From contig JAHRHZ010000140.1 of NCBI GenBank assembly GCA_024137785.1, positions 26,536,303 to 26,600,302 of the forward strand: a stretch of 64,000 bases of DNA, given 5' to 3'. A model generated the notes under the pieces. That model was given only the letters and a program-made list of their open reading frames with translations. It searched no databases and was not told where the DNA came from. Below are positions 5,586 to 61,838 of this stretch, piece by piece; the first letter of the stretch is position 1; each line of letters opens with the position of its first letter. Origin of the DNA: Ginglymostoma cirratum. Taxonomy: Eukaryota. Position numbers and translations under genes: made by a program.

Positions 5586-5901
5586 TGGTTTAAGAACAGA
5601 TAGTTATGTGATTAATCATTCATCAGGGATTGATTAACTCCGTGGTCCAGGTTATTTAAAGTAGTAAAACACATCCTAAGTGATATAGCAAACCAACTGA
5701 GTTGTGTATGCTGACTGCATATTCAGTCAACCTTGCTGGTTAGCAGAGCTGCAGTCTCTTCAGTACAGGGTTCCTGGGCCTTAAAGCTAAAATCTCTTAA
5801 AGACAAGGGTACACATACAACAGTTGCTAGTAATATCAACGGGAAAGAAAGTCAGACAGCCTATACTGTCTAATCAATTTCACCAACCCCAACCAGCAAC
5901 T

Positions 5902-6130
5902 AAAAACTGAAAGAACTGCAGATGCCGTAAATCAGGAATAAAAATCAGGTAGAAAAACTCAGCAGGTCTGGCAGCATCTGTGAAGAAAAAAATCAGAGCT
6001 AACATTTGGGGTCCAGTGACCCTTCCTCAGAACAGATGAGAAAGGGTCACCAGACTTGAAACGTTAACTGATTTTTCTTCACAAATGCTGCCACACCTGC
6101 TGAGCTTTTCCAGCAACTTCTGTTTTTGTT
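5902..6130. mobile_element. Hammerhead-bearing Penelope-like terminal element, subfamily A, inverted two-arm copy
   Basis: Arms ~5940-6030 and ~6036-6130 are reverse complements, each with a degenerate hammerhead core. Flanking direct repeat CCCAACCAGCAACT at 5888-5901 and 6131-6144. Confidence 0.8.
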
Positions 6131-6400
6131 CCCAACCAGCAACTGTCCAATGTCCTAAAATGTTTTTAATGATCACTATACGTGGAAAATGGCTTGCAAT
6201 GTAACAGTTAGAATACAAATTAAACATTTCTCCCAGAATGTATTGCCAGATGTCACTTATCATAGCAATTCAAATTAATTTGTTTTTTATTGTTAACAAC
6301 TGTTGGAAGTTCTCAGCTGCATAATGAATATGCAACATGATGATTTAATGTTAATGTAACTTAGTCCAAATGTATAATCTCAGACCTAATAAAGGGAGGA

Positions 6401-7379: not shown

Positions 7380-7729
7380 GGAGGCATAGTGGCTGAGTGG
7401 ATAGCATTGCTGTCTCACAGCACGAGGGATCCAAGTTCGATTCCAGCCTCAGGTAATTGTCTGTGTGGAGTTTGTACATTCTCCCCATGTCTGTGTGGGT
7501 TTCCTCCAGGTGCTCTGGTTTCCTCCCACAGTCCAAAGAGTGCAGGTTAGGTGGATTGGCTGTGCTAAATTGCCCAGTGTCCAAGGTGTGCAGTTTGGGT
7601 GGATTGGCCATGGGAATTGAAGGGTTCCAGGGATGGGGTAGAGCTGGGTGGGATGCTCTTCAGAGGGTCAGTGCAGACTCAATGGGTCAAATGGCTTGTT
7701 TCCACACTGGAGGGACTCTATGATTCTAT
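7380..7729 (+). mobile_element. tRNA-derived V-SINE (HE1-like)
   Basis: A box TGGCTGAGTGG, B box GTTCGATTCC, V-domain TGTGTGGAGTTTG...GGGTTTCCTCC...CTCCCACAGTCCAAAG, CR1-like tail ending TCTATGATTCTAT. Confidence 0.88.
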
Positions 7730-12974: not shown

Positions 12975-13304
<330 letters not shown>

Positions 13305-13554
13305 TTATTTTCAATCAGAATTTAGTCAAATACATTATGCAGAATAAGAGACGTGCAGCTCTCATTAACTCCTGATATCCTGAGTGCATATTTTTGCAAA
13401 TACTTGAAACGTACTCCAAGGATTTGGATAAGCTAAATTGTCATTAAACTTCACACATTCCCACATCTTTCTCCCCCCAATTCCTACAACAGAAACAAAT
13501 GTTTGCGCCTTGCCTTTGACTGATTTCATGCATAATTCATTATTAGCACCCTTT

Positions 13555-13975
13555 TTGAGAATAGTTGGATAGGCTGGGCTTGGTTCTGCTGGAGTTTAAA
13601 AGAGTGAGGGGTGATTTGATTGAAGAGTTTCAAATCGTGAATGGTCTTGACAACATGGATGCGGAAAGGACGTATCCTTTTGTGGGCAAGTCCAGAATTA
13701 AGGATTCTGTTTTAAAATTAGGGACTTGCCTTTTAGGACAGAGATAAAGATTTTTTTTGCCTCCAAGGGATTTGTGTGACTTTGAAATTCTCTGTCTCAG
13801 AAAGTGTCAGAGGTGATGTTATTGAATATTTTTAAGGGAGGATAGGTTATTGTTAGGCAAGGGAATTGAAAGTTATTAGGGGAGATGGGAATGTGGAATT
13901 TGGAACACAAACAGATCAGCCATGATCTTATTTAATGTTCAAGCAGGCCTGAAGGGCCAAAGGCTTACTTCTAGT
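13555..13975 (+). mobile_element. CR1-type LINE 3' fragment
   Basis: LDRLGLVLLEFKRVRGDLIE motif and tail GATCAGCCATGATC...GAAGGGCCAAAGGC. Confidence 0.85.
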
Positions 13976-15022
13976 CATTTTTTACAAGTCCATTCAGCAC
14001 TACAGGAAGAGAAAGACTAGTAAATCTGTTTAGTTGTTCTTCATTGATACTCTGTGAATACAAAATCAAAAAGGGTATGTAGATTCCTAATGTAAAGTTA
14101 GTAATTGTAATGATAATGTAAATGTGCTTCTGAGGTAAGCTGTGACATGGTTGTGACTTCAGTAATCTATGTTATTAATTTTCCACAAGACTGGAACCTC
14201 TACAGCATGAAGTATTGCTGTTTTGTAGCCTTTCCATCTTATACAGTCTATTATTAAACACTGTATAAAAGTAACTCAGATGTCTGGCCTGAGCTTGCTA
14301 TGAAGACCCAAAGAACACACAATGAAAGACTAATTAACCACAATACATATTTAAAGACTTTGTCCAATTCTGATACAAGCACGTTTCAACCAAAAAAAAA
14401 GGTTGAAACCAAAACAAGAGTTCCTCAAAAAATTGTACATGCAGGTTAAATAAATGTAAAGATTTCTGTGCTACTGACTCAGATTTGTAGGTTTATTTAT
14501 AATGACTTCAGCATGTTCAAAGTTTGCAATGTTAAACATTAATTGACTCTCTATAGAATAGACTTTGAGATTTGGTACATTCCAACGCTGTGAATCAAAG
14601 TTGAGGTTTCCAGTCTCATTATAACCAACAATGTGATAGTTGAATCTAGTAATTAGTTCGCCACTTATCCTGGTGGAATTAGAAACTAGGTATGAATTGA
14701 GGGAAAGGGGATTCAGTTCACTTTGATATTTATTTCTTGTCAAAAGTCTTCAAATATAGAGATCTGCACCCCAAAGGTTCTTTGTGACTCATCCTTCATA
14801 TGCTGATAGCTCACAGTCAAGAAGGAGTCAAGAAAGTGAGAGATGAAGGAGGTGCGACCACAAGTTTACAACTGCTGAACTACATATCACTCTTCAAGAA
14901 ATCCACATTGGAGAGGTTGCCCACTGGGCTTACAGGAAAGGATGCCCCAAAATCATGAGGGAAAGAACAGAGACTCCTCTCCCCATCAGCATAGCCAACA
15001 CCAGGTTCCTCTTTAGATGTTG

Positions 15023-15182
15023 GGAAGCTTGACGTTTCGGGCCTAGACCCTTCATCAGAAAATGAAGGGTCTAGGCCCGAAACTTCAAGCTTTCCTGCTC
15101 CTATGATGCTGCTTGGCCTGCTGTGTTCATCCAGCCCCATGCCTTGTTATCTTGGATTCTCCAGCATCTGCAGTACCTTTTA
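15023..15182. mobile_element. Hammerhead-bearing element, subfamily B, short inverted arm plus full arm
   Basis: Minus-strand core CTGATGA-A-GGGT-CTAG-GCCC-GAAAC-GTC at 15031-15058, with an inverted partial copy at ~15062-15093. TSD CCTCTTTAGATGTTG (15008-15022) / CCTCTTAAGATGTTG (15183-15197). Confidence 0.82.
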
Positions 15183-15499
15183 CCTCTTAAGATGTTGCTG
15201 CCTCAGCTCCAAAAGCCTCAAACTGCAGCTGTTGCAGTTACCTTACATGGCTTTGGCCTCTCTGAGAAACCTGGCTGCAGTATGAGGATGAGAAACGCAT
15301 TCCAAGCAAAAACAATAATAAGCAGCAGCTCAGAACATATATTGTAAAATATAAACTATGTTGTATTTTTAGTTAGATTGATTACCTTGTGATATAATCA
15401 AGATATATGAGCTCAGGTAGGTGTGAAATTGAATTTTTAATAAAGCTGGTCAGAAAAACAAACATACACACCATTATAAAGATAAGGTTTTTTGCACGG

Positions 15500-16705
15500 A
15501 TAAAGGCCTTTCAACCCATCATATCTTTGTCAGTCATCAAGCACCTACTTACTTTAGTCCCACCTTTCAGCACTTGACCTGTAACCTGGCATGCTACGGT
15601 GTTTCTAATGTTCATCTAAATACTGTTAAGTGTGATGGTTCCCTCTTCAACAGCCTTTCAGGTTGTGAGTCCCAGATACTCCCCATCACCTGGATGAAAA
15701 TATTCTTCCTTAAATTCCCTCTATACCCCTGATTCTTACCTTAAATCTTTGCTCCTTGGTTATTGATTCCTCGACTAAGAAGAAAGGTTTCTTCTTAACT
15801 ATGTCTCTCATAATTTTGTACACCTTGATCAGATCCCTCCTTTAGCTTTTCTGCTCTAAGGAAAATGACCCCAGCCTGTCTCGACTTTGATCATAGTTCC
15901 AGCCCAGGCAACATGCTGATCAATCTCTTCAGCATCCTCTTCAAGGCAATCACATCCCTCCTATACTGTGGTGAACAGAACCCCATACAGTGCTCCAGCT
16001 ATGGCTTAACTAACATCTTATAAAGGTAAAATCACCATTGTCTTACCAGGCCAGGCAGGGCAGGTCTCTAAATAGACAGAGACAACTGGTGGTGGTTTTA
16101 CCCAAGGGTCTTCACACCTCAAGCAGGGGGAGAGGCTGAGAAGGAGAGTTCTTCATGATAACCTCAGCTGGTGTGGGAATCAAACTCACATTGTTGGTGT
16201 CACTCTGTATCTCAAACTAGCCATACAGGCGAGTGAGCTAACTGCCCCCCACTAATATCTTATACAACTCCATCATATTCCTCCAGCTCTTGCACTCAAT
16301 GTCTTGAATGCAAAAACAAGTATTCTATTTGCCTTCTCAACCACCATAGCCACATATCCATCTATCCTGTTGCTTTCAAGGATCTGTGAACTTGTTTTTT
16401 TTATGAATTCATGGGATGAAGGCATCGCTGGCTAGGCCAGCATTTATTGCTCATCCTTAATTGTGCAGTGAGAGGTTAAGAGTCAACCACATTGCTTTGG
16501 GTCTGGAATCACATATACACAGATGTCTGTATCTCATGTACATCACACCAAGGACCTGCTGTCTATCCTAGGGCCCTGCTATTCATTGTGTGCTCCCTTG
16601 CCTTGATAGCCCTCCCAAAATGCATCATCCTCACACTTGTCCTGATTAAATTCCATTTGTTACTGTTCTGGTCATCTGACCAGCCCATCTACATCATCCT
16701 GTAGA
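15500..16705 (-). mobile_element. CR1-type LINE 3' part with nested SINE insertions
   Basis: Reverse CR1 tail and ORF2 end (CTGGAGCACTGTATGGGGTTCTG on minus), interrupted at 16023-16250 and ~16395-16520. Confidence 0.8.
16023..16250 (-). mobile_element. tRNA-derived SINE nested in CR1
   Basis: Minus-strand A box TAGCTCACTCG and B-box-like GAGTTTGATTCCC. TSD ACTAACATCTTATA (16009-16022) / ACTAATATCTTATA (16251-16264). Confidence 0.75.
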
Positions 16706-17091
16706 CTAAGGAGGTGTGGAATATACAAGGAACATTTTGAATTAACCAAATTCTGAAGCAATGTTCAGGAGAAAAATAATTTGTTCTATTACTAATGATC
16801 TCCCTATTATTTTGGAATTGTGACCAGTGGATGGAATAGAAGTAAACACAATGCGAGAGAACTGCCTGTCAGCAGACTGCAGAGTCTTGTCAACTCTATT
16901 GACAGGAAAACCTTACCCTCAAGTCCTATTGTCCTCTCATTTTGCTGGATGCTTGGTATAACATTTGTCCCTTTATTGTGACATCCCCTTTTAATTGTTC
17001 CCATCCATTTGATATACACAGAGATTTCTACAGATAGCCCATGCAATCCACATCGCTGTTGACATTTTGTAACTAAACTGACCTAGCAGCT

Positions 17092-17186
17092 AAGATAACA
17101 AAGTTTAGAGCTGGATGAACACAGCAGGCCAAGCAGCATCAGAGGAGCAGGAAAGCTGACATTTCGGGCCTAGACCCTTCTTCAGA
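17092..17186 (-). mobile_element. Hammerhead-bearing element, subfamily B, single arm
   Basis: Minus strand reads CTGAAGAAGGGTCTAGGCCCGAAATGTCAGC...CTTTGTTATCT. No clear TSD. Confidence 0.75.
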
Positions 17187-18309
17187 TTCTGTCTAAAACC
17201 AACAAATTGTCATTTTGGCAACTTAACACTGAAGAGCAATAATTGGCTTAAGAATCCATAAAAAGCAGCTGGCATAGAAAATGAAAAACTTCATTGCTGC
17301 AAATGGAAAACTTTTCCAAGGTTTGGTTCAGCACGTATTAAAAAATGGCAAATGCTATGATTTGCCCACAGTAAAGTTACAATAAATGAATCGTTCTTTC
17401 AAGTCGATTTTGAAGTCTATAACTAGAAAATAAGTGGTATTTATTGGTCAGAATTTCATTTATTTTGGAAGCTCTTGCCATTTTACTATTTTGTTCTAAC
17501 AGCAAGAAGGCAAGTAACTCTGCATTTTCATAAGCATTGCACACTAAGGTCAGATGTGTTGCCTCAGTTGCCAATAAAATAATTAAAGAATATAGAAAGT
17601 GAATTATTTTATAAACATATTTGCAATGCTGACATTGGCATGTGCACTCATGGATTTTCACTGCTGATCCATCTGTTTTACATTTACTTAAACTTGCTAC
17701 TGAATTCATTTAACACCGACTCATCTCAGACGAATGAATAATTTTCAGGTCAACCTGCTGAGTGTGTTTTGAATGTGAAAGGAAATTGATTGAATGTAGC
17801 TTGAAATCTAATAGGAGAAATGCCTTAAGATTGACTCAATGAGTAGCCTGTAGTTAGACTGTGTGCTTGGAAGGAGTTTTCTGAATTAAACTATGAAGGT
17901 TTGTCCAAATAAAAAGTGATTGGAGCTGTCTGAGCCATAGGCCCAAAATGGATTTTAAGTTACTGAATACAGATGTCCTACTGATCTGGACCTGTATTTG
18001 CTTCCTCTCTTCACAAAAACCTGAGAAAGCAGGGTATGAATAGATGTATGGACATGACTAGGCACCAGTCCTACATTAATTTTAAAATCACCAGGGATAT
18101 CACGAGAGACTCTTCAGCCCATCACTCAAATCGGTCAATAAGATGGAAACTTCTTTTACAAAAAAGTTATATTTGTGTTTTTTTGACATTAACCTTCCGT
18201 CTTTCATTATTAGACTTCAGGCCTTGATTTTAATTTTAGTCCTATTTGTTTGAGCTGCTTTTGCAATAGGAAGTTTAGGAGTTCTTTACTCTTTTATTAC
18301 TCACTCATT

Positions 18310-18760
18310 AGACCATAAGACATAGGAACAGAAATTTGGCCATTCGGCCCATTGGGTCAGCTCCACCATTCAATCATGGCTGATAAATTTCTCAACCCCG
18401 TTCTCTGCTTTCTCCCCATAACGTTTGATCCCTTGACAGTCAAGGATATGGGAAATGCTGGCTGCCCAGTAATTATTGCCCATTCTTAGTTGCCCAAAAG
18501 AAGGTAGCAGTGAGTATCTGAGAAGTCACAAATGGTGCTGAATATTGTGCAATCATCAGCAGACATCCTCACTTCTGGCCTCATGAGGGAGGGAAGGTCA
18601 TTGGTGAAGCAACTGCAGATGGTTGTGCCTAGGACTCTACTCTGAGGAACTCCTGCAGAGAAGTATTGGAGCTGAGATAATTGACCTCCAATAATCACAA
18701 CATCTTCCCACGTGCCAGGTATGACCCTAACAACTGGAGAGATGTCCCCAACTCTCAATG
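18310..18760 (-). mobile_element. CR1 tail plus fragment of another non-LTR RT
   Basis: CR1 tail at 18310-18445. ORF 18486-18758 carries GVPQ..VLG...NDLP...ADDCT RT motifs. Confidence 0.75.
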
Positions 18761-19810
18761 AAGATTGTCTAGAATATGTAGAAGGCTGTGGAAATTTAGA
18801 ATAGAAAATTTATAACAGAAAGGTAAAGGCTGCAGAAGTTTATGATTAAGTTTATCACCTAGGACAAGTTCTGCTGAGATCAGGGAAGGCAAGATACAAT
18901 CCAGCATGAGGTAATTCAGCATCAGTTAGCAGTCAGTCTAGAACTCACTCAATAGCTCAAGATTCAGGAAGAACAGGAACAGTAGAAGTTCCCAATCATT
19001 CTAATCTCTCAGAGGTCTGTACCATGCTTGAAAAGGAAAGTGAAGGAGCCAGTTCATGATTGCCAGCTCATCAAAATGAAGTTGTACAAATTCTCAAATA
19101 GATAGTAAATAAAAGGACAAAGACTGTATTGCATTCAATAGGTATTTGACAAGTTTGAGAGTCTAAGAACTTTATCTCATCAAATCTCATCAAATTATTT
19201 CAGTCCCAGATATTGGCCTCAACTATAAGTTTATAATGGACGAGCAGTTAATGCTGAGTTACTATGGCATGACTGCCCTTGTAATCTCTGCAGTTTATTT
19301 TGCAATTTACCTCAATGAACTTTGAAAACTCCTTTTAAATGCTCATGACTATGCTAACGTTAATAAATAATTGCTAGTTCATGACCTTCCTGCTTTCTTT
19401 TATAATTGGCAAAGTAGGCTTAATTGATTCACGAAGGAGGTTAAGTTTAGCCTGGTGAGCAGTTGTGGTGTAAATACTAACACAATTTAAATTGGTTTCA
19501 ACATGCCAACTTGAACAAAATTAACTTACAGGCATTGGCATGGTGGTAAACCTCTGCTGATTCTTGAAATTGGGTGGCAACGTGAAGGAGTTAAGAATTT
19601 AACCAGTGCTACTGATGACAATTTGTTGCTGTGTATCAATCCGAGTGTTTTTATTATCCTCGAACATGTAAACTTTCTCCATAAGGCCACTGGCAGAATG
19701 ATCCGATTTAGAAACAGCAATAACTTTGCTTTAATTATTTGTTTTCTTTAGTGTGACATCAAAATCCCAACTTGCTCATTTTATCTCATGCCTCTTATAT
19801 AATACTTTCT

Positions 19811-20145
19811 AGAATCATAGGATCTCTACAATATGGAAGCAGGCCATTCAGCCCACTGAATTCACACTGACCCTCTGAAAAGCATCCCACCCTGTCCCTG
19901 TAACCCTGCATTTCCCGTGGTTAATCCACTTAGCCTGCACATCCCTGGACACTACAGACAATTTAGCACAGCCAATCCACCTAACCTATATATCTTTGGA
20001 CTGTGTGAGGAAACACGAGCATACAGAGGAAGCTCACACAGCCACAGGGAGAATGGGTAAATTCCACACAGACAGTTGCCCAAGGCTGGAATCAAACTCA
20101 GGTGCCTGGTGCTGTGAGGAAGCAGTGCTAACCGTTGAGCCATTG
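19811..20145 (-). mobile_element. V-SINE (HE1-like)
   Basis: Reverse complement of the 7380-7729 family. Confidence 0.87.
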
Positions 20146-20719
20146 TACAACCCAAGGTGCAAATATCTTGAAGAATCTGTTGTAGTGACTTGTTTTTGAA
20201 CTTCACTTTTGTCCTGAACATTTTAAACGAAGGAATATCATCATTTCAAGCATCTGATAGTCAGCAAGTCTCTCCTCCATTCTCCACCCTTCAAAGCTGG
20301 TTCTGTACCAGATATTGTCAGGCAATCACCACCAGCTTATTTCAATAGGAAAGGTGTTTGAATTGATCCATTTTGCCATCCTGTTTGCAATCTGCCTACA
20401 TTTTAATGAATGGACAAGAACGCCTCCTTATCTCCCTCCCACTCCCAGCTGTTTCACATTTTAAAGTTTCTGTGACAGATTGTGTTACAGAGTCATTTGG
20501 ATTCTCTGTTAATCCTCAGATTCCAGGTTTGTGATTCACTATCTTTATCATTGTGCTTGTTACTCGTCATCAAAATGTACTGATTAACCCCAATGGTACC
20601 TTTTCTTTATTCGCTCACAGGATGTGTGTGTCACTTGTTGGGCACACTGAAGGAGCAATAATATATTTCTAAGTCATGATGGTGACTGACCTGGGGGAGA
20701 ACTTGCAGATTCCCATGTG

Positions 20720-20892
20720 CTTTAATTTTGTTAACCAATGTCCTGTGGGACTTTTATCAAAAGCATTTGGAAAATTCAAGTATACTGTGTTCATCAACTT
20801 CCCTTTATCAATTTTATTAGTACCGTCAAACACTCCAACAAGTTCGTGAAACACTATTTTTGATTCATAAACCCAAGTTGACTCTGCCCAAT
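20720..20892 (-). mobile_element. CR1 RT fragment
   Basis: TNKIDKG...VYLNFPNAFDK (DFxKAFD motif). Confidence 0.7.
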
Positions 20893-20907
20893 AACTGTAA
20901 CCAACAG

Positions 20908-21147
20908 AGATAACAAGGTGTAGAGCTGGATGAACACAGCAGGTCAAGCAGCATCAGAGGAGCAGGAAGGCTGACGTTTCAGGCCTAGATCCTTCTTCAG
21001 AAAAATTTTCAGATTTTCTGAAGAAGGAGGTAGGCCCGAAACGTCAGCCTTCCTGCTCCTCTGATACTGCTTGGCCTGCTGTGTTCATCCAGCTCTACAC
21101 CTTGTTACCTCAGATTCTCCAGCATCTGCAATTCCTACTATCTCTGA
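20908..21147. mobile_element. Hammerhead-bearing element, subfamily B, full palindromic copy with tail
   Basis: ~100-bp inverted arms (~20906-21004 and ~21014-21112), each with CTGAAGA...GAAACGTC, then a ~35-nt tail. Perfect 15-bp TSD AACTGTAACCAACAG (20893-20907 / 21148-21162). Confidence 0.88.
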
Positions 21148-22254
21148 AACTGTAACCAACAGTTTGGGATGCAGGCTTCAGGCAAGTTGATAGTTGTCAA
21201 TTGAAAAAATTCCAAGTCTTTCACAATTTGCTTAAATGCAAGTTATCCAAAAGAGTTTTATTTCCCTGAGGGATTTTAATTGGTAATCCAAAGTTTTATT
21301 TAGAGTAGTGATGTATAGCCATGTCTATCATGTCTACTTGCTCCCAAAGTGGCCTGGGCAAGATATATCTTCTGTTGTTGTCTTAATTTTGTACTCTTTT
21401 GCTTAAATGCTCCATCATGACAACTACAGAGTGAAACTGCATCTGTTGATTGAAAGAAATATATGCACTGCTATCGAGTAAGAAATACTCTTGAGGAAAA
21501 CCTTAGGTATAGATTTTCTGACAAGTGACAATACTGCACAGATTGCCACACCAGCCTCTCCTTTTCAGGAAAGAATGGAGCTCTGCAATTTGGACAGGAG
21601 ATTCCACTCTACTCTCAATTAGAAATGCAGAACTGTACTTCCATTCTGACAGTTTTTCCATTGCACAAAACTGTCAGAGGTAGACGAAGCAAACTCCTTT
21701 TTCACAGCAGACAGCTGTTGTATTCTGATATTTAAAGATCCTGACAGCCACTTTGAGAGCTACTGTCAAACCATAAGTAACTGCGAAGATAGGTGCTAGG
21801 TGATAGAAGGACAGGACATCAGGTAAATAGAAGGTCAAGCAGCATAGATACCAGGTAAGTAAGATGCCAAGTGGATAGTATGCCAATTTGGCATGTTGCC
21901 AGCTGGGGTGGGGGAGATGGTGCCAGGGTCCACGATGGCAGGTAAGTGTTTAGGGTCAATTCAAGACAACGATCTGTGGCAAATCTAGGCCACTTGTAGA
22001 CTGAAGAAACTAGTTGTCCTTTCAATCTCAGGGAATTGTGGCTGCTATATATGGAGACAATCTCCTGTTCCTAATCCAGTTTTGTCTTATACTGGGCTTA
22101 TGCCACTGGATCTGTGGGTAGTTGGGATGCAGAGAGTAAAGACTAGCTAATAATAATTAACATCAAATGGTGCTATGCCCAAATTTGCTAGTTTTGTTAC
22201 GTGAAATTGTGTTTGTCTACTGGCAACAAGTGTACACTACGTGTTATAATTATA

Positions 22255-23040
22255 TCACATGAGCAAGGAGTAAGAGCAGGCCACTTGGTTATTTAGGCCT
22301 GCTACACCATTCAATTGCATGATGGCAGCTGTGTTTTCAATTGCAATTCTACATTCCCGCCTACCTGGACAATCATTCATCCCCTTGGTGGTCACGGATC
22401 TATTTGTCTGTCTATCTATCTGTCTATCTACCCACCACTGTCTTAAAAAAAAAATTCTGCATCCATTACTTTTTGAGGAATGGAATTCCAGAATCCTCAG
22501 AGAAAAATATTTCCTCATCTCTGTTTTAAATGGGTGACCACCTATTTTTAAAACTGTGATTCCCAGTTCTAGGTACTCACGCAAAAAGAAACATCCTTCC
22601 AACATCCACCCGGTCATGTCCCCTCAGGATCTTGTATGTTTCAATTAATTCACTTCTGACTCCTCTAAACTCCACACAATACAGACCTAACCTGTATAGC
22701 CTTTCCTCATCAGGCAATCTGCTCATCCGGGTATTTGTCAAATATATCTTCTCTGAACTTCTTTCAATGCATCAACATTGTTAGGAATAGGATTAAAATA
22801 GTTAGGTAGTTGGTGTTGATTAGGACAGACTCAAAGGGCTGAAGGACCTTTTTTTCTGTGTTATAGACCACTATGACTGTAACATCCTTTCATAAGTACA
22901 GTAACCTGTACAGAGAACTCCAGATTCAGTCGCACCAATGCCCTGTATAACTGAAGCATAACATTCCTAACCTTGAATTTAATTCTTCTTGCAATAAAAC
23001 TTAACATTCCATTCATTTTCCTGATTACTTGCTGATAGCT
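22255..23040 (-). mobile_element. CR1-type LINE 3' fragment
   Basis: NGMLSFIAR...VMLQLYRALVRLNLE and FKTEMRKYFS motifs. Contains a short TATC/TGTC microsatellite at ~22400-22430. Confidence 0.82.
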
Positions 23041-24124
23041 TTTCTGTGTAGATGAGCAGCACATTGACAATGAGAAGAAATACCCCCCATATTACTAAAT
23101 TATCTTTCTTTGGTTACTTTACTAAATGGGTTAAAATGGCATTTGTTAACAATACTATGACTGTAATTTCTATGAAGTGGTAATTTGAATGCCCTAAGTT
23201 AAATAGCTTATAACGAGATTAGTTCATTTGTCATGGCTTTGAACAGCCTTGCATGATTACACATGAACACTGAGCACCGTAAAGCTGCTCTACATCCAGT
23301 CAGATAAAGCCAACAATGAAGGAAAATTTATTCAACCAAGCTTACTGATCATAGATGCATAAAACTGCATCTGTTCATGAAATATGTGTGTCATAGATTC
23401 TGTTCAGATTGTCAAAATCATGATTTTGTGAATATACTGCACAAACATATACGAACTGAAGTGCATGTGCTGTGGCATTCACCAGACAGCAGATTCCTCA
23501 GCATCAGCAATGACATAAAAACAACCGTTGTTTAAAGATTTCAATCATGACTTACACTTCTGGCTTCCCAACTTCTGCCAATGTATGTGGAATGCCAATT
23601 GAAATGAGTTATGTGAAAAACTACTGACTTGAATGTATGGGCTTGGTGTTCAGTCATTCCTACCCAATGTAAATCATAGACGCGTATGCAGCAATAGCAA
23701 TTTCTATTGCTGTTCCCCTGACAAGTATTTCCCCCCAGAGTAGAAGCAAAGCATCACCCCTTTCAGTGATTCTCAAGTTCTTCAGGTAAATGTTGAATAT
23801 GACAGCCAGATTTCAGTGAAAGCCCTATGGCGAGCATGAGTGTGATGATGAGTGGGAGTGCTATAGTAGAAAATAAACATTTAATGAGTATGCTTTTGGG
23901 ATAAGGTACCTGAAATATAACTTTTATAACAGCTGGTGTGATTAACATGAAAAGTCTTTAAAAAAGAATACCAAATTTCTGTCAAGTAGGTAATTTTGTA
24001 TGTAATCTATTTAGCTGCTGTTCTGTCCATCTTTTGCCAATGAAGATAACCTTCAATAACTTATCTTACAATTTATTACTGGAAACAACATATCCAAATT
24101 ATCACTCTATATGTGCATAGATTA

Positions 24125-24313
<189 letters not shown>

Positions 24314-24434
24314 CTAAAATTCAACGCAAGAGAGTCATCATATTGTGGACACTCACAAAATGGGACTAAAAGGTGAATTTGTAAAGTCCAGTTCATGTAA
24401 ATATATGTAGGGAGCAACAACTTCTGGAAGTTTA

Positions 24435-24674
<240 letters not shown>

Positions 24675-27600
24675 TCAAGCAGAACTAAAATTAAACCAAA
24701 CATTGCTTACCCCAAATAATTTAAAATTTATTTTCTTCAATACCCTATTCATTGGGCTATTGCATGCAATTACCATTTAAACTAGAAAACTCATCAGTTA
24801 CACTATTCTATTCCCTAGATTCCAACTAAGGGTAACTAGCTGTAAAACAAAGCAAAGTCTAATATATTAACCACTCTTAGCTTGGCTTTTGGAAGGAAAA
24901 TGTCAATATTTCATATAATATTCTGCTTGCTTCAAGTTGCTTGCTTTATGTTAGAAGTTTCAACATTATTTACTTTCAGCTGAAAACTTCTTTTATATTG
25001 TAAATACTCAAGTCATTTTTACAATTCATGAATTAGATCACAAGATCAATTTGGCTTGAAAGGACCTTTCATTCCAGTTATTCTCATCTTTCTAAATACC
25101 ACGCAATAACATTCCAATAGCAGTCAGTGAATTGAGTGTAATTTCCATTTCAAACTATGTGAAGTTATGCCATTTAATTCCAAATCATAGAAATCAATTC
25201 CATTTAGTTGGAAACATTAAGTCATTGATTCATTGACCACCCTAAACTAGAGCTGTATAAATATCGGGGAGTTTATTTTGGACAAACTTTTCAATGTTTA
25301 AAGGAAGTTGGACCCAACCCTGGATCCTGAGTAAAGGCTGTTTCGTCAATTCCATTACAGATATCCAACATAGAGGCAAGCGATTTATACAATTTTTGAG
25401 TAACGTCTGAACTTTCTTCCACTATGTAGAATGTCACCAAATAGATTGCTCCAATTCTAACTTTCAGCCCCGTACGTACGTCAGTAATTCAGCCCATTTA
25501 ATATTTGTTGATAATTGGCAAATTGAATTGGATTGATACTCCCTCAAAGGTTCCTGAGACTGTTGATATTGGTATGATTAAAATAAGCATAGTTCTCAAA
25601 TTGCCTTTCGTTAAGTGTCAGTTCTAAAGGTTTTGCACCATATTTCATTTTAAAACTAAGTTCAATTTTTATCTGTCACAGAAATGCAGCCTAGCGAACA
25701 GCTGACTTGATCAAGGGGTGTCACTGGATGACTTGGCCAATTTTAATAGCCAGCCCACACTAGTGTATTAACTGCAGGCTTCCCAATCAAAATAACTTAG
25801 AATCTTGTGTGGAAGCTGAAATCATGAGATTCTGAGACCACCAGTCTGGACCAGGGTAACAGTCTCCACATGTAATAAGTGTCCTAGAAGAACTGGCAAA
25901 GAGATTCTCAGTCAGTTGATGAGGGATATACACCCGTTCCATAAAAAAACAATAAAATGTTAAGATTTTACACTTAGTTCCATCATTTCTGGCCTAAGAT
26001 TTTCATTCAAATGGTTTTGGATTAATGGGGAAGCCATCACTCCCCCTCCACAAATTGGGCTTTAGCTTCAGTCAGTTTTGAGGAAAGGCTCAGGCCTTGG
26101 TGAGTACAGCAGTCATTTCACAATCATATCATTGGAGACTTTTTGCACATATGAAAAGGATGTTGCTGGCTTTTGGCAATTCAAAATTGCATTTTCAAAT
26201 TCCAGATTAGGAATTTCTCCGGCTCCATTTTAATTGATTTTCTTTCTGGTTTCTATCAGGTGGATTGTGTTAAATCAATCTTATTGTTTGCAATTTAATA
26301 TGTTTTGCAAAAAGTAAGTAAATCTTCCATAGCATTACTCAGAAAATTGACCAACATTTATATTTAATAGCAGGAGTGTTTGTATTGTGCAATGTATTTT
26401 CATTGTGAAATGAAACAGTGATCTTTTACAAAGTCTTGATCCCTGCTCAGTAGATGGAGTATCCAATCAGAGTCACACTGCTTTTTAAAATCTCTTCAAG
26501 ATGAGGGTCATTTCATGATTAATTGCAGTTTAATGTGCTAGGTTTATTTTTCTGAGATATACTCTGTTGAATTCCTATTTTTCCAGAACAAAGCTCAGGA
26601 AAACAGCGGTTGTACAATTGACCCTCCAGAAGTTAGCCCATTTTAGTCAACCTGTTTGGACACATTGTGACATACCTTCAGGCAGGTGGGGCTTGAATCA
26701 GACCTCTTGGCCCAGAGATAGGGAAACTACCCAGAGTCACAAGTCCATTATATGCTGACAAGAGTTTATGCTATTTCCAAGGAAAAGCAAACTGGGCTTG
26801 CACTTGTGTGTGGGACAATTACATGCTGATGAAGCAGAAGGTGGCATTCTGAACCTTCTCATTTTATCATTGCAATACTGACTGGGTTATTGAGTGTGAA
26901 GGTGCACAGTGAAACATGTTACAGTCCGTCTTGTTATTCCTGGTCTTCTAATTCTGGTCCTCAAAATAAGTCTTTTTTTAAAGAGTAGGGAAAATGTTTC
27001 TTGGTTTCAGTGCAGCCAGCAAGGCTACGAATGCTTCTCCTCATTCAGCAAAACACTGTAGTCCTCACCTGCTCTATTTCTTGCCTTTGGTCCCACCCAC
27101 AGGACCATTCTACATGCTAACTTGGCATCAGAATTAGCCAGATCTCAATTGGTGAGCTATGCTGGGATGAGTTGGTACATGCAGCTCACCAGTTCAGTGC
27201 AAGTGGTAGTTGGCAGCCTATTCTATTCAGGTGTTCGGATTGTACTGCCTATTTCAGGTTGGGCTCAGTTATGAGAGTTCCTCTCTTTGTGCTTTCTTTC
27301 CTTTAATCTCCACTCATGAAAGAACAATTATCATAGTTGTTGACTGTATAGGATGGCTGGTGATAAACAAGACATGCATTATTGGGAACCAGTGACAAAT
27401 AGTATCATGAATGGGGGCCTGACTGCTAACATTTCAGAGTTGGCCTAGTTTATGAGTGGGTGGAAAATCCTACTTCAGTGCCTATGTTTATAAATGTGGT
27501 GGGAAGCATTGTTTAAATGAAGAAGCTAGCCATTGTATTCACTTCAATATTTACAGCAGTTAATAAAACATATTGGACCCCAGACACTTAAATGTTTGTT

Positions 27601-27710
27601 TCATGAGCACAATTTTTCGATGAATATTCAGGTTTCATCTGGGATATTTCATTAGAAAATTATGTATTTATGAGTGAATGTAAATTGTTGTAAAGAAAAT
27701 ACTTATCTTA

Positions 27711-27929
<219 letters not shown>

Positions 27930-33212: not shown

Positions 33213-33850
33213 CATTGCTTACTGAGTAGCGCTCATGCCTCTGATTTGCATGGTTCCAGGATCAAGTCCCACTCCAAGGCCTAAGAACCAAAATCAAGGC
33301 TAATACTCTACTACATGGGGTGCGGTCCTTCAGATGAGATACAAAACAAAGGCCCCATCCCCCTGCTTTGATGAATATAAAAGATCCCACAGTACTATTG
33401 TGAAGAGAGTAGAGGTCTATCATCAGCATCAAACACAATAACAAAGTTGCTGGAAAAGCTCAGCAGGTCTGGCAGCATCTGTGAAGGAGAAAACAGAGTT
33501 AACTTTTCGGGTCCAGTGAAAGGAAGGGTCCCCAGGCCAGAAACGTTAACTCTGTTTTTTCCCTCCACAGATGCCGCCAGACCTGCTGAGCTTTTCCAGC
33601 AACTTTGTTGTTGTCCCTGATTTACAGCATCCGCAGTTCTTTTGGTTTCTAACATCAGCATGTTGGTCAGTAGCTACTCTGAAATCATTATCATAAAATT
33701 CAGAACATTATAAAATTGCTTTTAGTGGGAGTTTTCAGTGCATCTAATTGTATGTTCGCTGCATTATAGGAACGACTGCACTTCAAAAGTACTTCATTGT
33801 CTGTAAAGCACTTTGAGATGTCCAGTTATTGTGCAAATATATGCTTTATA
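33213..33850 (+). mobile_element. Deu-domain SINE (SacSINE1/AmnSINE1-like) with L2-like tail
   Basis: tRNA-like head (GGATCAAGTCCC), Deu-like CTTCAGATGAGAT...AAAGATCCCAC...GAAGAG, tail ACTTCAAAAGTACTTCATTG...GTAAAGCACTTTGAGATGTCC. Confidence 0.7.
33430..33647. mobile_element. Subfamily A palindromic element nested in a Deu-SINE
   Basis: Inverted arms with a central deletion removing both CTGA motifs, tail CTGATTTACAGCATCCGCAGTTC. TSD TCTATCATCAGCAT (33416-33429) / TCTAACATCAGCAT (33648-33661). Confidence 0.82.
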
Positions 33851-56250: not shown

Positions 56251-57118
56251 ATCGCCTGCTTGAAGGTAAATCTATAGTAGACAGTGTGAGGCATTCAAAA
56301 GGGTATTAGGCGTGTATAGGGCTAACATTTCTCCTTTAGCATGAAATGTAGAAGCAACAAACCCGGAGACCAATGGATATCCAGGAATATTCAGGACTGG
56401 ATATGAAGGAAAAGAGAAATGTATAACAGGTACAAAGGGAGCAAAACAATGGCAGCCCCAGAGGAGTATTGAAAGTGCAGGGGGATCTCAAGAAAGCAAT
56501 TCAGAGAGTAAAGAGGGGACATGAGAAAATGCTTACAGGCAAGACTATGGAGAATCCCAGAATATTCTGCATGTATATCAAAGGGAAGAGAGTAACCAAG
56601 GAAAGAGTGGGGCCCAAGAGGGCAATCTGTGCATGAAGTGGAGGACTTTGGCAGAGTGTTAAGTGAATACTTTACATCTGTCTTTACTCAGGAGAAAAAG
56701 GATGCAAATACAGAATTCAAGAAGATGGACTATGAAGTCTTTGAGCAAATCAATATAAGAAGTGAAGCGTAATTGGAGGTTTTGGCAAATTTAAAAGTGA
56801 ACAAATCCACAGATGTGAGTTGTATCCCAAATTTTCAAACCATCCTTGGCCACAGGGGTGATGCCAAAGGACTGGAGGACAGCTAATGTGGTCCCACTTT
56901 ACAAGAAGGGTGGTAGAGATAGGTCAGGGAGCTACGGACCAGTGAGTCTAGCATCAATGGTAAAGACACGACTGGAGAAAATAGTGAAGGAGAAAATTAA
57001 TCTCCATTTATAGAGACAAACTTTGATCAGAGATAATCGGCATGCCCTTGTCAGAGGTAGGTCACACCTAACAAATCTAGTGGAATTTTTCGAGGAGTTG
57101 ACCAAATGTTTAATGAGG

Positions 57119-57217
57119 AACAAAACAAAATTGCTGGAGAAAATCTGCAGGTCTGGCAGCATCTGTGAAGGAAAAAACAGAGTTAACGTTTCGGGTCCGG
57201 TGACCCTTCCTCAGAAC
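57119..57217 (-). mobile_element. Subfamily A element with intact hammerhead core, inserted in a CR1 RT frame
   Basis: Perfect 12-bp TSD TGTTTAATGAGG (57107-57118 / 57218-57229). Interrupts the CR1 RT segment LTNLVEFFEELTKCL...VDEVYVDFSKAF. Confidence 0.9.
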
Positions 57218-57218
57218 T
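57181..57218 (-). ncRNA. Minimal type I hammerhead ribozyme motif
   Basis: AGUU CUGAGGA A GGGUC-ACCG-GACCC GAAAC GUU^AACU. Helix I AGUU/AACU, 5-bp helix II, palindromic ACGU helix III. Activity not demonstrated. Confidence 0.75.
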
Positions 57219-59814
57219 GTTTAATGAGGGTTGGGTTAGTTGATGAAGTTTACGTAGATTTCAGCAAGGCCTTCAACAGGATCCCATGTGAGAAACTGAT
57301 AAAGGAGGTAAAACTTAGTGGGATACACAGTAACTTGACAAATTGGATCCAAAATTAGTTTAGAGACAGGAGGCAGAGAGTGGTGGTAAAAAGCTGTTTG
57401 TGTGACTGGATCCCAGTTTGCAGTTGTGTACCACAGAGATCAGTGTTGGGTCTCTTATTATTTGCATTAATCATAAATGATTTTGATGAGAATGTAGGGT
57501 GTGGGGAGGCTGGTAAGTAATGGTAATGACAGTGAGGAGGAAGGTGATACATTATTGGAAATATAAACAGATTGGTTAGGTGGGCAGAGCAGCGGCAGAT
57601 GGAATTTAACCTTGATAAATGTGAGGGGATGCTCTTTAGACAAAGGAACAAGATAAGGGAGTACTCAATGAATTTCAAAACACTAGGAAGCTCACAGGAC
57701 AGAGGGATCTTAGGGTGCTTGTCCACAGATCACCGGAGCTGGCAAGACAGGTTAATAGGATAGTTAAAAAGGTATACAGGATTTATTAGACATGGCATAG
57801 ATTACAAGAGCAGGGTGATTATTTTGGAGCTTTACATAACTTTGGTTAGGCCACAGGTGGGGTAGTATGTGCAGTTCTGGTCACCACACTATAGGAAGGA
57901 TGTGGAGTGGGTACAAAAGAGATTCACTAGGAGGCTGCCTGGGATGAAGAGGCTGGATCAGCTCAGATTGTTTTCTTTGGAGCAGAGAAGGTTAAGGGGG
58001 TCCTGAGAGAGGTGTATAAGATTATGATGGGCTTGGATGGGGTGAACAGAAAGCAGTTGTTCCCTTTGGTTAAACAGACAATAACAAGGGCATATAATGT
58101 GAATGTGAAAGGCAGGACAGGATGTTAACAGGGGATTTGAGGAAAAACCTTTAAACCCAGTGTGATGGGTGTTGGAATGCACTGCCTGGGAGGGTAATTG
58201 AGGTGGGAAACCTCAGCTGTTAGAAAGCACTTGGACAGGCACCTGAAATGCCATAGCATTCAGGGCTATGAGCCGAGAGCTGGAAAGTGGGAGTAGTGTT
58301 AGTAGTATAGGTAGTTCTCCTATAACTCGATAGTTGCATTCTTACACTGCCTCACACTATAGAAAATCACGCTATAGGGAAATCGCTATAGGAAATTGCT
58401 TCATTAAAAGAAAACCAGGACAAAATACACCTTTTAAAACCATAGTATCATCACACTGGTTTTTGCATCCTGATCACCTAAACCAAGGTCATCTCTAACT
58501 GCTCCACCAATGCCATCCTTACTTAATAGTCCTACCGCTTCACCTTCATATAGCTTTCTATTCTTCTTGAATGTTATTTACCTTTCCACATTTCGGACTG
58601 AATCTTGGTTATCATGCAACCTCAGCCTTATCTCCTTAAGAGTAATCAATTCCCCTCATATTTTTACTCCTCCCATAATATCGATGATATTTTGTTTGTC
58701 TATGTCTGTCTGTGTGTATGTATGGGCACTTAAGAAGATAATCCCAGGTGAAGTGAAGCTTGAGTATCAACATATTTTCCCAAGTGGATTCTGACACCAT
58801 TTACATTGCATCTGCAATACAAACATTTGTCTCAATGGTAACTATCCCACCAAACCCCTACATCCCCAAGAAAGGAGGTTTGGCTACCTGATTCACACGG
58901 TACTAAACATTTTTAACCAATTTTAAAATAGTGGACAATTAAAGAGTCAATGCTGCTTCATACAACATCTATTAACGATATCAAAACTCCTAACTCCAAA
59001 CTACTAAGGAAAATCTTTTGGCAAGCAAAAAGCATTAACCTGAAATTGTACCCTCTGCACAAATTCAAGTCCTTTCATTAAAACAGCAAAGCTGAAATTA
59101 TATTTCACCAAAATTCCTCAGAAGACCTTTAATGGAATTTTGAAGAACCTGTTCACAACTCCTGAACTGCCAGTAAGCCAATAACCCAATCTCACAAAGG
59201 AATTTCAGCTGTGGACTTTTGGATTCCATCTTAAATAGGATCCCTTAAATGTTTCATACTCAAGTTGTTGCTAAATTGAAGAAACTCTATTTTTTTCATC
59301 TAATTTCAACATGCATGTTTGCAAACCTTCCTGTGTTGTGAAATATCCACTACCATACCTCATTTCTAAGGGTGAGTGAAAATAAGCCCTACATTTGGTT
59401 AACTTTATAGTGGTGTTGTTGAGATCCTTACTAAAGCAGAGTCCAAAAACAGGGAGAGTGGGGCAATGTGCAACTAATGTTTAAAAAAGGGAAAAATGAA
59501 ATCACAATCTGCTTAGAAAAACATGGTGAGAATAGAAAACTTGAATTCTTCTGTAACAATTTAAGAAATTAATATGAAATCGACCTGTCATTTTACTAGA
59601 GATATTATTTAATCACGAACTTAGAATTTGATAAACATTTTATATTGCTATCACACAATATAATCTCAAGGCAATGATGAGTTGTCATCCCTTACAATGG
59701 TTCTATCCAACACAAGAGTGTATATTTTGAATTAGTAATTGTGAAGTAAACCTCTGGTAATCAATATAATTTGCTGCTCTTGTGTTTCTGGTATAGTGTA
59801 TTTAACTTATTCAA

Positions 59815-61530: not shown

Positions 61531-61838
61531 TAGAATCCCTACAGTATGAAAACAGGCCCTTCAGACCAACAAGTCCACACCAACCCTCAGAGCATCCCAC
61601 CCAGACCATCCCCCTATAACCCACCTAATCTACACATCCCTGAACACTATGGGCAATTTAGCATGGCCAATCCACCTAGCCTGCACATCTTTGGATTGTG
61701 GGAGGAAACCAGTGAACCCAGAGGAAACCCACACAGACACAAGGAGAATGTGCAAACTCCACACAGACATGTGTGGATGGAATCAAAACCAGGTCCCTGG
61801 CACTGTGAGGTAGCAGTGTTAACCACTGAGCCACCATG
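61531..61838 (-). mobile_element. V-SINE (HE1-like)
   Basis: Reverse complement of the 7380-7729 family. Confidence 0.87.

What the first reader, a model, noticed from the sequence alone, without database searches (positions are those of the whole stretch)
20893..21162. Palindromic twin-hammerhead insertion with perfect 15-bp TSD and 35-nt tail
Seen: two ~100-bp arms in inverted orientation meet at their ribozyme ends, so either strand's transcript contains a CUGAAGA...GAAACGUC core. Only the right arm continues into a ~35-nt extension. AACTGTAACCAACAG flanks both sides. Established: inverted pseudo-LTRs with a ~30-40 nt tail are typical of Penelope-like insertions. Inference: one insertion event made both arms by template switching, and in RNA the ~100-bp hairpin would mask the ribozyme and offer an ADAR/Dicer substrate.
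Basis: partly seen in the sequence, partly recalled or inferred. Interest (0 to 1): 0.75.

Follow-up and report, generated by a model that had tools for sequence, protein, structure and literature searches.

The report
Head-to-head Penelope retrotransposon mini-insertion
This is one of thousands of small hairpin-shaped leftovers of a Penelope-type retrotransposon in this genome, ordinary in itself, but the copies together suggest that the element starts copying at both cut DNA strands, which could explain the unusual shape of such insertions.

Summary
In detail: 98-nt inverted arms (94% complementary), a 36-nt one-sided tail and a perfect 15-nt flanking duplication. It is not unique: at least 3,053 such head-to-head junctions exist in the genome. 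The arms are the hammerhead-plus-tail end of a Penelope-like element with RT and GIY-YIG domains. Inverted arms, tail and TSD are published PLE hallmarks. Both ribozyme cores in this copy are decayed, and only 1 of 40 short arms starts at the cleavage site. The population adds a rule: 43 of 44 insertions with a TSD (mode 14 nt) pair one tailed with one tailless arm. Either arm can be longer, both outer joints look like priming joints, the centre looks end-joined, and the arms usually share a donor. Best reading (0.55): reverse transcription is primed at both staggered nicks, at the two start sites that bracket the tail, and the two cDNAs are joined head to head. Snap-back copying remains possible (0.27). 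The element sits in a carboxypeptidase intron; editing or dicing is untested. New member of a known kind.

The parts
20893..20907 (.). left copy of the target-site duplication (15 nt; last nt also fits the arm)
   Evidence: microhomology
20908..21004 (-). tailless arm: element read on the - strand, ending at the inner site (site 1)
20973..21000 (-). minimal hammerhead core, decayed (helix II closes with G-U, third pair mismatched)
   Evidence: sequence
21005..21013 (.). copy-specific central spacer, with a 6-nt piece (21008-21013) matching the neighbouring arm end
   Evidence: family pattern
21014..21111 (+). tailed arm up to site 1: element read on the + strand from the putative RNA 5' end
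21018..21045 (+). minimal hammerhead core, decayed (helix II broken); nominal cleavage after 21045
21112..21147 (+). 36-nt tail between site 1 and site 2; in the parent it runs on into the 5' part of the ORF
21148..21162 (.). right copy of the target-site duplication (first 3 nt also fit the parent continuation)
24435..24674 (-). open frame holding an exon of the host M14 zinc carboxypeptidase gene, upstream of the insertion in gene direction (context only)
12975..13304 (-). open frame holding a later exon of the same gene; the insertion lies between these exons (context only)

Best explanation
It is a dead mini-insertion of an endonuclease-bearing Penelope-like retrotransposon, made in one event. 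Shown: the arms are the parent's segment from just before the hammerhead core to two end points about 34 nt apart; the TSD is about 14 nt; one arm is tailed and one is not; the centre is unique to each copy. Inferred: the RT-GIY-YIG protein, probably as a dimer, nicks both target strands about 14 nt apart. One 3' end primes reverse transcription at the outer site (tail end), the other at the inner site, usually on the same RNA or on RNAs from one donor. Both cDNAs run to the RNA 5' end, 3-5 nt before the hammerhead core at an initiator-like motif. They are made double-stranded and joined head to head by end joining that adds short templated pieces. Priming at the RNA's 5' copy of this signal gives the 240-nt palindromes; priming at the 3' copy gives the long inverted insertions. 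The hammerhead marks the segment but does not make its ends.
For: One tailed plus one tailless arm in 30 of 31 short and 13 of 13 long TSD-bearing insertions: 43 of 44, p = 5e-12 against independent choice. 0 of 6 tail/tail palindromes have a TSD. The tailless arm reaches further 5' than the tailed arm in 8 of 13 long cases, by about 1.8 kb in L081. The outer joints are alike: no inserted base in 37 of 50 (tailless end) and 46 of 50 (tail end), mostly 0-3 nt microhomology. The centre has inserted bases in 41 of 42, all 42 spacers differ, and 21 of 42 hold a templated piece of 6 nt or more against a shuffle mean of 4.1, max 9. Single tailless arms with their own 12-14-nt TSD exist (L087, L035, L094). 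Arms share non-CpG variants (88 against 28.8 +/- 5.3) but not CpG decay (1 against 4.7 expected). 5' wall: 64 of 84 arm ends match the parent for 3-5 nt before the core; none of 66 incidental arms starts between -32 and -8. PMC11167929 reports that the anole PLE protein cuts and extends both strands in vitro, starts RT at two internal sites that bracket the tail, is predicted to be a dimer, and does not need hammerhead cleavage.
Against: All of it is inference from finished insertions. Long palindromes can lose their centre asymmetrically (recalled), which would also leave either arm longer. In L096 and L098 the arms end within 13 nt of each other over 1.3 kb, as snap-back predicts; two cDNAs on one broken RNA would do the same. 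One variable site is discordant between arms in 10 of 59 pairs against 4.2% background, so 'one RNA' is not universal, or the site is hypermutable. 11 of 42 short and 6 of 19 long pairs had no TSD at my threshold. The 19 long pairs were picked by hand from 55 loci. No RNA data support the transcription start. No empty site was found.
Confidence: 0.55

Rival explanations
1. Snap-back or template switch: one cDNA primed at the tail end reaches the RNA 5' end, folds back, copies itself up to site 1, and is cut or joined there; later central deletions make the arms unequal.
For: Arms share donor variants. Near-equal arms in L096 and L098. Templated pieces in the spacer show that cDNA ends do fold back briefly. 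It also predicts one tailed and one tailless arm.
Against: It needs an extra rule to stop at site 1, which is an RT start site in the anole element (PMC11167929). It needs deletion from the tailed arm in 8 of 13 long cases. The site-1 joint is as clean as the tail joint, while the centre is the untidy one. Single site-1 arms carry TSDs. Arms disagree at one variable site more than background.
Confidence: 0.27
2. Self-priming on an antisense transcript, as proposed for rotifer Penelope elements.
For: Proposed in PMC3846280 to explain head-to-head palindromes and intron retention (passages).
Against: It does not explain two fixed outer ends matching sense-strand RT start sites, a 14-nt TSD at both, or a 5' wall in sense orientation. 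Sense RNA is the template in vitro.
Confidence: 0.06
3. A palindromic master element (SINE-like or MITE-like) is copied whole.
For: Stereotyped size of about 240 nt in the 30 best matches, which were chosen for likeness to the query.
Against: 42 of 42 spacers differ. Arm lengths run from tens of nt to over 2 kb with the same end rule. TSD length varies from 11 to 17 nt, and the two ends are not inverted repeats of each other because of the tail.
Confidence: 0.05
4. Two separate insertions at one site, or later gene conversion between arms.
For: Tail/tail palindromes without TSD exist (0 of 6 with TSD) and may have arisen this way.
Against: One TSD encloses both arms in 44 cases. CpG decay is not shared between arms (1 against 4.7), so they were not homogenised after insertion.
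Confidence: 0.04
5. This copy is kept for a host function as an intronic dsRNA hairpin (editing, small RNA or splicing control).
For: It lies between exons of a carboxypeptidase gene. Both junctions are shared with two related organisms. The hairpin is very stable.
Against: Its arms differ at 6 of 98 positions like other copies. Three further such palindromes with TSDs lie in the same window, and thousands in the genome.
Confidence: 0.03

Closest known systems
Endonuclease-bearing Penelope-like elements with inverted pLTR, tail and TSD (Pen2a_Av, PMC3846280; general scheme, PMC8557442)
   Same: Inverted 5'-truncated copy head to head, 30-40-nt tail on one end, TSD around the whole unit, hammerhead in the repeat, DKG motif, C-terminal GIY-YIG.
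   Different: TSD mode is 14 nt here against 8-10 nt in the rotifer examples read. The commonest form has no ORF at all, only two cDNAs of about 95 and 130 nt. Copy number is in the thousands.
Poseidon from Anolis carolinensis (PAc, PMC11167929)
   Same: Hammerhead about 100 nt before two end points that bracket the tail; both strands cut and extended; ribozyme not needed for insertion in vitro.
   Different: The parent here has the CX2-5CxxC linker motif of Neptune/Nematis, which Poseidon lacks. The arm appears to be 5' untranslated sequence, whereas the PAc ORF starts in stem II. The parts of that paper I read do not link the two start sites to inverted insertions.
Metazoan minimal hammerheads of PLEs (PMC4209133) and non-LTR retrozymes (bioRxiv 10.64898/2026.07.22.740005)
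   Same: CUGANGA / GAAA / UH core with a palindromic ACGU in place of helix III, extra base before helix II; PMC4209133 notes pairs of motifs 100-700 bp apart on opposite strands.
   Different: Retrozymes are direct tandem repeats thought to use circular RNA. These arms are inverted, their ends are not at the cleavage site, and helix I is 2 bp.
L1 twin priming (recalled, not read)
   Same: Both target nicks prime cDNA on one RNA and give an inversion inside one TSD.
   Different: L1 twin priming gives non-overlapping segments with a variable internal primer site. Here both cDNAs cover the same segment from two fixed sites.

Membership tests
EN+ Penelope-like element (parent) | RT domain with DKG motif | tested here: met
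   L081 frame of 478 aa holds the motif; RVT_1 E = 7e-6, below Pfam's cut-off
EN+ Penelope-like element (parent) | C-terminal GIY-YIG endonuclease with two cysteines inside the motif (CCHH) | tested here: met
   GIY-YIG E = 5e-5, above cut-off, downstream of RT; cysteine pair seen; definition from PMC8557442
EN+ Penelope-like element (parent) | pLTR in tandem or inverted arrangement, tail on one end | tested here: met
EN+ Penelope-like element (parent) | Hammerhead motif in the pLTR | tested here: met
   166 distinct cores with helix II of 3 bp or more in the fetched loci and window; activity not tested
EN+ Penelope-like element (parent) | RT groups with PLE RTs in a tree | not tested
   no reference PLE proteins were fetched
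Neptune/Nematis clades | CX2-5CxxC motif in the RT-EN linker | tested here: met
   C-X4-C-X2-C before the GIY-YIG in L081 and L090; definition
Neptune/Nematis clades | Phylogenetic placement in Neptune or in Nematis | not tested
   no tree with reference elements
Active type I hammerhead (this copy) | Conserved core letters | tested here: met
   both strands
Active type I hammerhead (this copy) | Intact helix II and a helix I of 4 bp or more | tested here: not met
   helix II stops after 2 pairs on both strands; helix I is 2 bp; neither core passed the scan; no Rfam match
Active type I hammerhead (this copy) | Self-cleavage | not testable with these tools
   needs an assay
Non-LTR retrozyme | Direct tandem units, each with a hammerhead | tested here: not met
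   arms are inverted; short direct tandems exist elsewhere in the family
MITE / DNA transposon | Terminal inverted repeats at both ends and a fixed TSD of 2-9 nt | tested here: not met
   one-sided tail; TSD mostly 12-15 nt and variable

The most novel reading that the evidence does not exclude
Penelope-like elements routinely insert by double priming: one RNP nicks both strands about 14 nt apart and starts two cDNAs at the two sites that bracket the tail, so the inverted pLTR, the one-sided tail and the TSD all come from one geometry. The 43-of-44 one-tailed/one-tailless rule and thousands of TSD-bearing mini-palindromes would be its genomic record. I did not find this model in the held library; subscription papers, supplements, Repbase and Dfam were not seen.
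Probability: 0.45. Interest if true: 0.65.

Novelty: new member of a known kind. Interest (0 to 1): 0.4.

Why it matters
The single locus matters little: it is a decayed repeat in an intron. The family matters as a natural experiment. How PLEs make inverted repeats and a one-sided tail is described as undefined in PMC8557442, and the published proposals are self-priming or endonuclease resolution. Thousands of short insertions with readable TSDs and two fixed ends allow that question to be tested by counting, and give a precise prediction for the existing in vitro system. The palindromes also put many roughly 100-bp dsRNA stems into introns, which makes them candidate editing substrates, untested here.

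Tried and rejected
Rfam scan of the window: no match. Empty-site search: contigs of organisms A and B run from both flanks into the element (records 2, 7, 9, 15, 29), so no empty allele was seen. No contig spans the centre, 941 joints were not shown, and organism C had no cover on most flank bins. Expression: no RNA holder listed, which is no evidence either way. Hammerhead cleavage as the source of the ends: rejected, 1 of 40 short arms starts at the cleavage site. A cap-derived extra G at the 5' wall: 6 of 15 by my reading, not above chance, no claim made. Target-site motif: only a weak T bias at both nicks. Gene conversion between arms: rejected by unshared CpG decay. A tree of long arms had low support at most nodes. 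A Pfam accession I recalled for PLE proteins is not in the library. The first 30 loci are biased towards the query, so counts rest mainly on the position-ordered junction set; 8 of its 50 junctions were dropped for unreadable bases. Only 75 of 158 open frames of the window were scanned for the host gene, so the exact intron is not fixed. Earlier findings of the scan: none returned.

Full report
Observation. There is a perfect 15-nt direct repeat at 20893-20907 and 21148-21162, and 98-nt inverted arms at 20907-21004 and 21014-21111, 94% complementary, 9 nt apart. The right arm alone runs on for 36 nt. The RNA folds into one long hairpin, z = -23.8, with 0 of 200 shuffles as good. Each strand carries a minimal hammerhead core. 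In this copy both cores lose helix II at the third pair and fail a permissive scan, and Rfam finds nothing in the window.

It is one of thousands. A search of the 4.36-Gb own genome gave 3,245 first-look candidates, 40 scored. An exact pattern for the central junction matched 3,053 places against 0 for the reversed control; this is a lower bound. The same window holds three more head-to-head insertions with 14-15-nt TSDs, two of them from a second family.

The parent. Upstream of the core, many copies continue into a shared pyrimidine-rich sequence; downstream of the tail, many continue into a shared sequence in which a reading frame opens right after the tail. [quoted passage not shown] The linker has a C-X4-C-X2-C motif, which PMC8557442 gives for Neptune and Nematis and not for Penelope/Poseidon (passages). 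I built no tree with reference elements, so the clade is tentative. The arm is therefore the pLTR end of an endonuclease-bearing PLE, and probably its 5' untranslated region (inference).

TSD and ends. I took the first 50 junctions in genome order, chosen only by their centre; 8 were dropped for unreadable bases. 31 of 42 have a TSD of 11-16 nt, mode 14, against 3 of 150 mismatched-flank controls. In 30 of these 31, one arm ends at the tail end (125-133 nt from the core) and the other does not: 24 end at 90-100, 5 earlier and 1 at 107. One insertion has no tail and none has two. Of 19 long head-to-head pairs picked by hand from loci L080-L134, 13 have a TSD (control 1 of 40), and all 13 pair a tailed with a tailless arm. 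Together 43 of 44, p = 5e-12 if each end chose independently. Six tail/tail palindromes were seen and none has a TSD. Of 40 short arms found by chance in the flanks, 24 have an inverted partner and 16 stand alone.

The centre. Arms stop at a wall: 64 of 84 ends match the parent for 3-5 nt before the core and none for more than 8 (the pattern allowed spacers up to 30 nt). Among 66 incidental arms none starts between -32 and -8, 19 of the 40 short ones start at -7 to -1, and 1 starts at the cleavage site. The wall falls in a CCATTTC motif that fits an initiator consensus (recalled). D. virilis Penelope has an internal promoter (PMC2377424, passages). A transcription start is thus the likely cause, but no RNA evidence was obtained. 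All 42 spacers differ, 41 contain inserted bases, and 21 hold a piece of 6 nt or more matching the neighbouring ends (shuffle mean 4.1, max 9). This resembles polymerase-theta end joining or RT slippage (recalled). Each palindrome was therefore joined anew and not copied from a master.

One template or two. In 63 pairs the arms share 88 non-CpG variants against 28.8 +/- 5.3 for shuffled pairs. Long arms share private variants in 9 of 16 pairs, up to 14, against 0.31 per kb between insertions. CpG decay, which follows insertion, is not shared (1 against 4.7 expected in 34 pairs), so this is common origin and not later conversion. Against a strict single template: one site is discordant in 10 of 59 pairs (background 4.2%, p = 0.0002; independence would give 28.8), and at 333 variable columns of 17 long pairs both arms carry the minor allele 105 times and only one arm 52 times. 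Hypermutable sites could explain part of this.

Mechanism. PMC11167929 (parts 1-2 of 4 read) reports that the anole PLE protein cuts and extends both target strands, starts reverse transcription at two internal sites that bracket the tail, is predicted to be a dimer, and does not need hammerhead cleavage. The geometry here fits directly. The left arm's top strand and the right arm's bottom strand are both antisense to the RNA and both start at a TSD end. Their start points are 34-35 nt apart and share a TATCTC(A/T)GA motif. The two outer joints look alike: no inserted base in 37 and 46 of 50, mostly 0-3 nt microhomology (this set mixes query-biased and position-ordered loci). In long insertions the tailless arm reaches further 5' in 8 of 13 cases and the tailed arm in 5; a simple fold-back copy cannot hold sequence that the first cDNA lacks. 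I therefore favour priming at both nicks with head-to-head joining (0.55). Snap-back with later asymmetric deletion stays open (0.27), since near-equal arms in L096 and L098 and the shared variants fit it as well. Self-priming on antisense RNA (PMC3846280, passages), a palindromic master, and separate insertions fit worse.

The ribozyme. The commonest form in the fetched loci has a 2-bp helix I (92 of 166 cores); an older variant has 3-4 bp and the second family in the window 4-6 bp. PMC4209133 (parts 1-2 of 4) found such motifs inactive as monomers and weak as dimers, and noted pairs on opposite strands. One transcript of this palindrome holds one sense core and its complement, so it cannot form a cis dimer. 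The predicted probability of a central helix II pair is 2e-16 in the hairpin, but also only 4e-7 in the single arm and 2e-4 in a parent-type arm. Masking adds little to a fold that is already disfavoured.

Context. Open frames at 27711-27929, 24435-24674 and 12975-13304 on the minus strand match successive parts of Peptidase_M14 (nearest solved structures are carboxypeptidase D/N/M types). The insertion is thus very likely intronic and transcribed in pre-mRNA (inference). Two related organisms carry both junctions, so it predates their split; no empty site was seen.

Verdict. The architecture is a published PLE hallmark, so the locus is a new member of a known kind. The double-priming account was not found in eight searches of the held library. 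I also read parts 1-2 of 5 and passages of the 2026 retrozyme preprint and passages of PMC9977147. Older subscription papers, supplements, Repbase and Dfam were not seen and may hold the family or the model. Interest 0.40: low for the locus, moderate for the testable rule.

Noticed in passing
window 5888-6144 and 33416-33661: Head-to-head palindromes of a second hammerhead-bearing family with one-sided tail and 14-nt TSD; its helix I is 4-6 bp. The same geometry in another family.
   Followed up: partly
window 15008-15197: Older subfamily of the same element: short 36-nt inverted arm, tailed arm, 15-nt TSD with one mismatch.
   Followed up: partly
window 57104-57229: Single arm of the second family flanked by a 15-nt duplication with one mismatch.
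   Followed up: no
window 12975-27929, minus strand: Exons of an M14 zinc carboxypeptidase gene of the CPD/CPN/CPM-like group; gene not named.
   Followed up: partly
L089 4669-4975, L090 4416-4771, L094 4966-5267, L081 4535-5127: Direct tandems in which a short unit starting at the 5' wall follows 60-330 nt of the ORF's 5' part, as if a cDNA ran off the RNA end and jumped to another RNA; a possible record of pLTR formation.
   Followed up: partly
window 21112-21147 against 33616-33650: The tails of the two families share a central motif around CAGCATC-GCAGT although their arms differ; a candidate protein-binding signal.
   Followed up: no
L010, L019, L055, L077, L132, L117: Palindromes with a tail on both arms all lack a TSD; their origin is unexplained.
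   Followed up: partly
window 7390-7728, 19810-20142, 61531-61838: Three copies of another repeat of about 340 nt, 73-76% alike, one just upstream of the finding.
   Followed up: no
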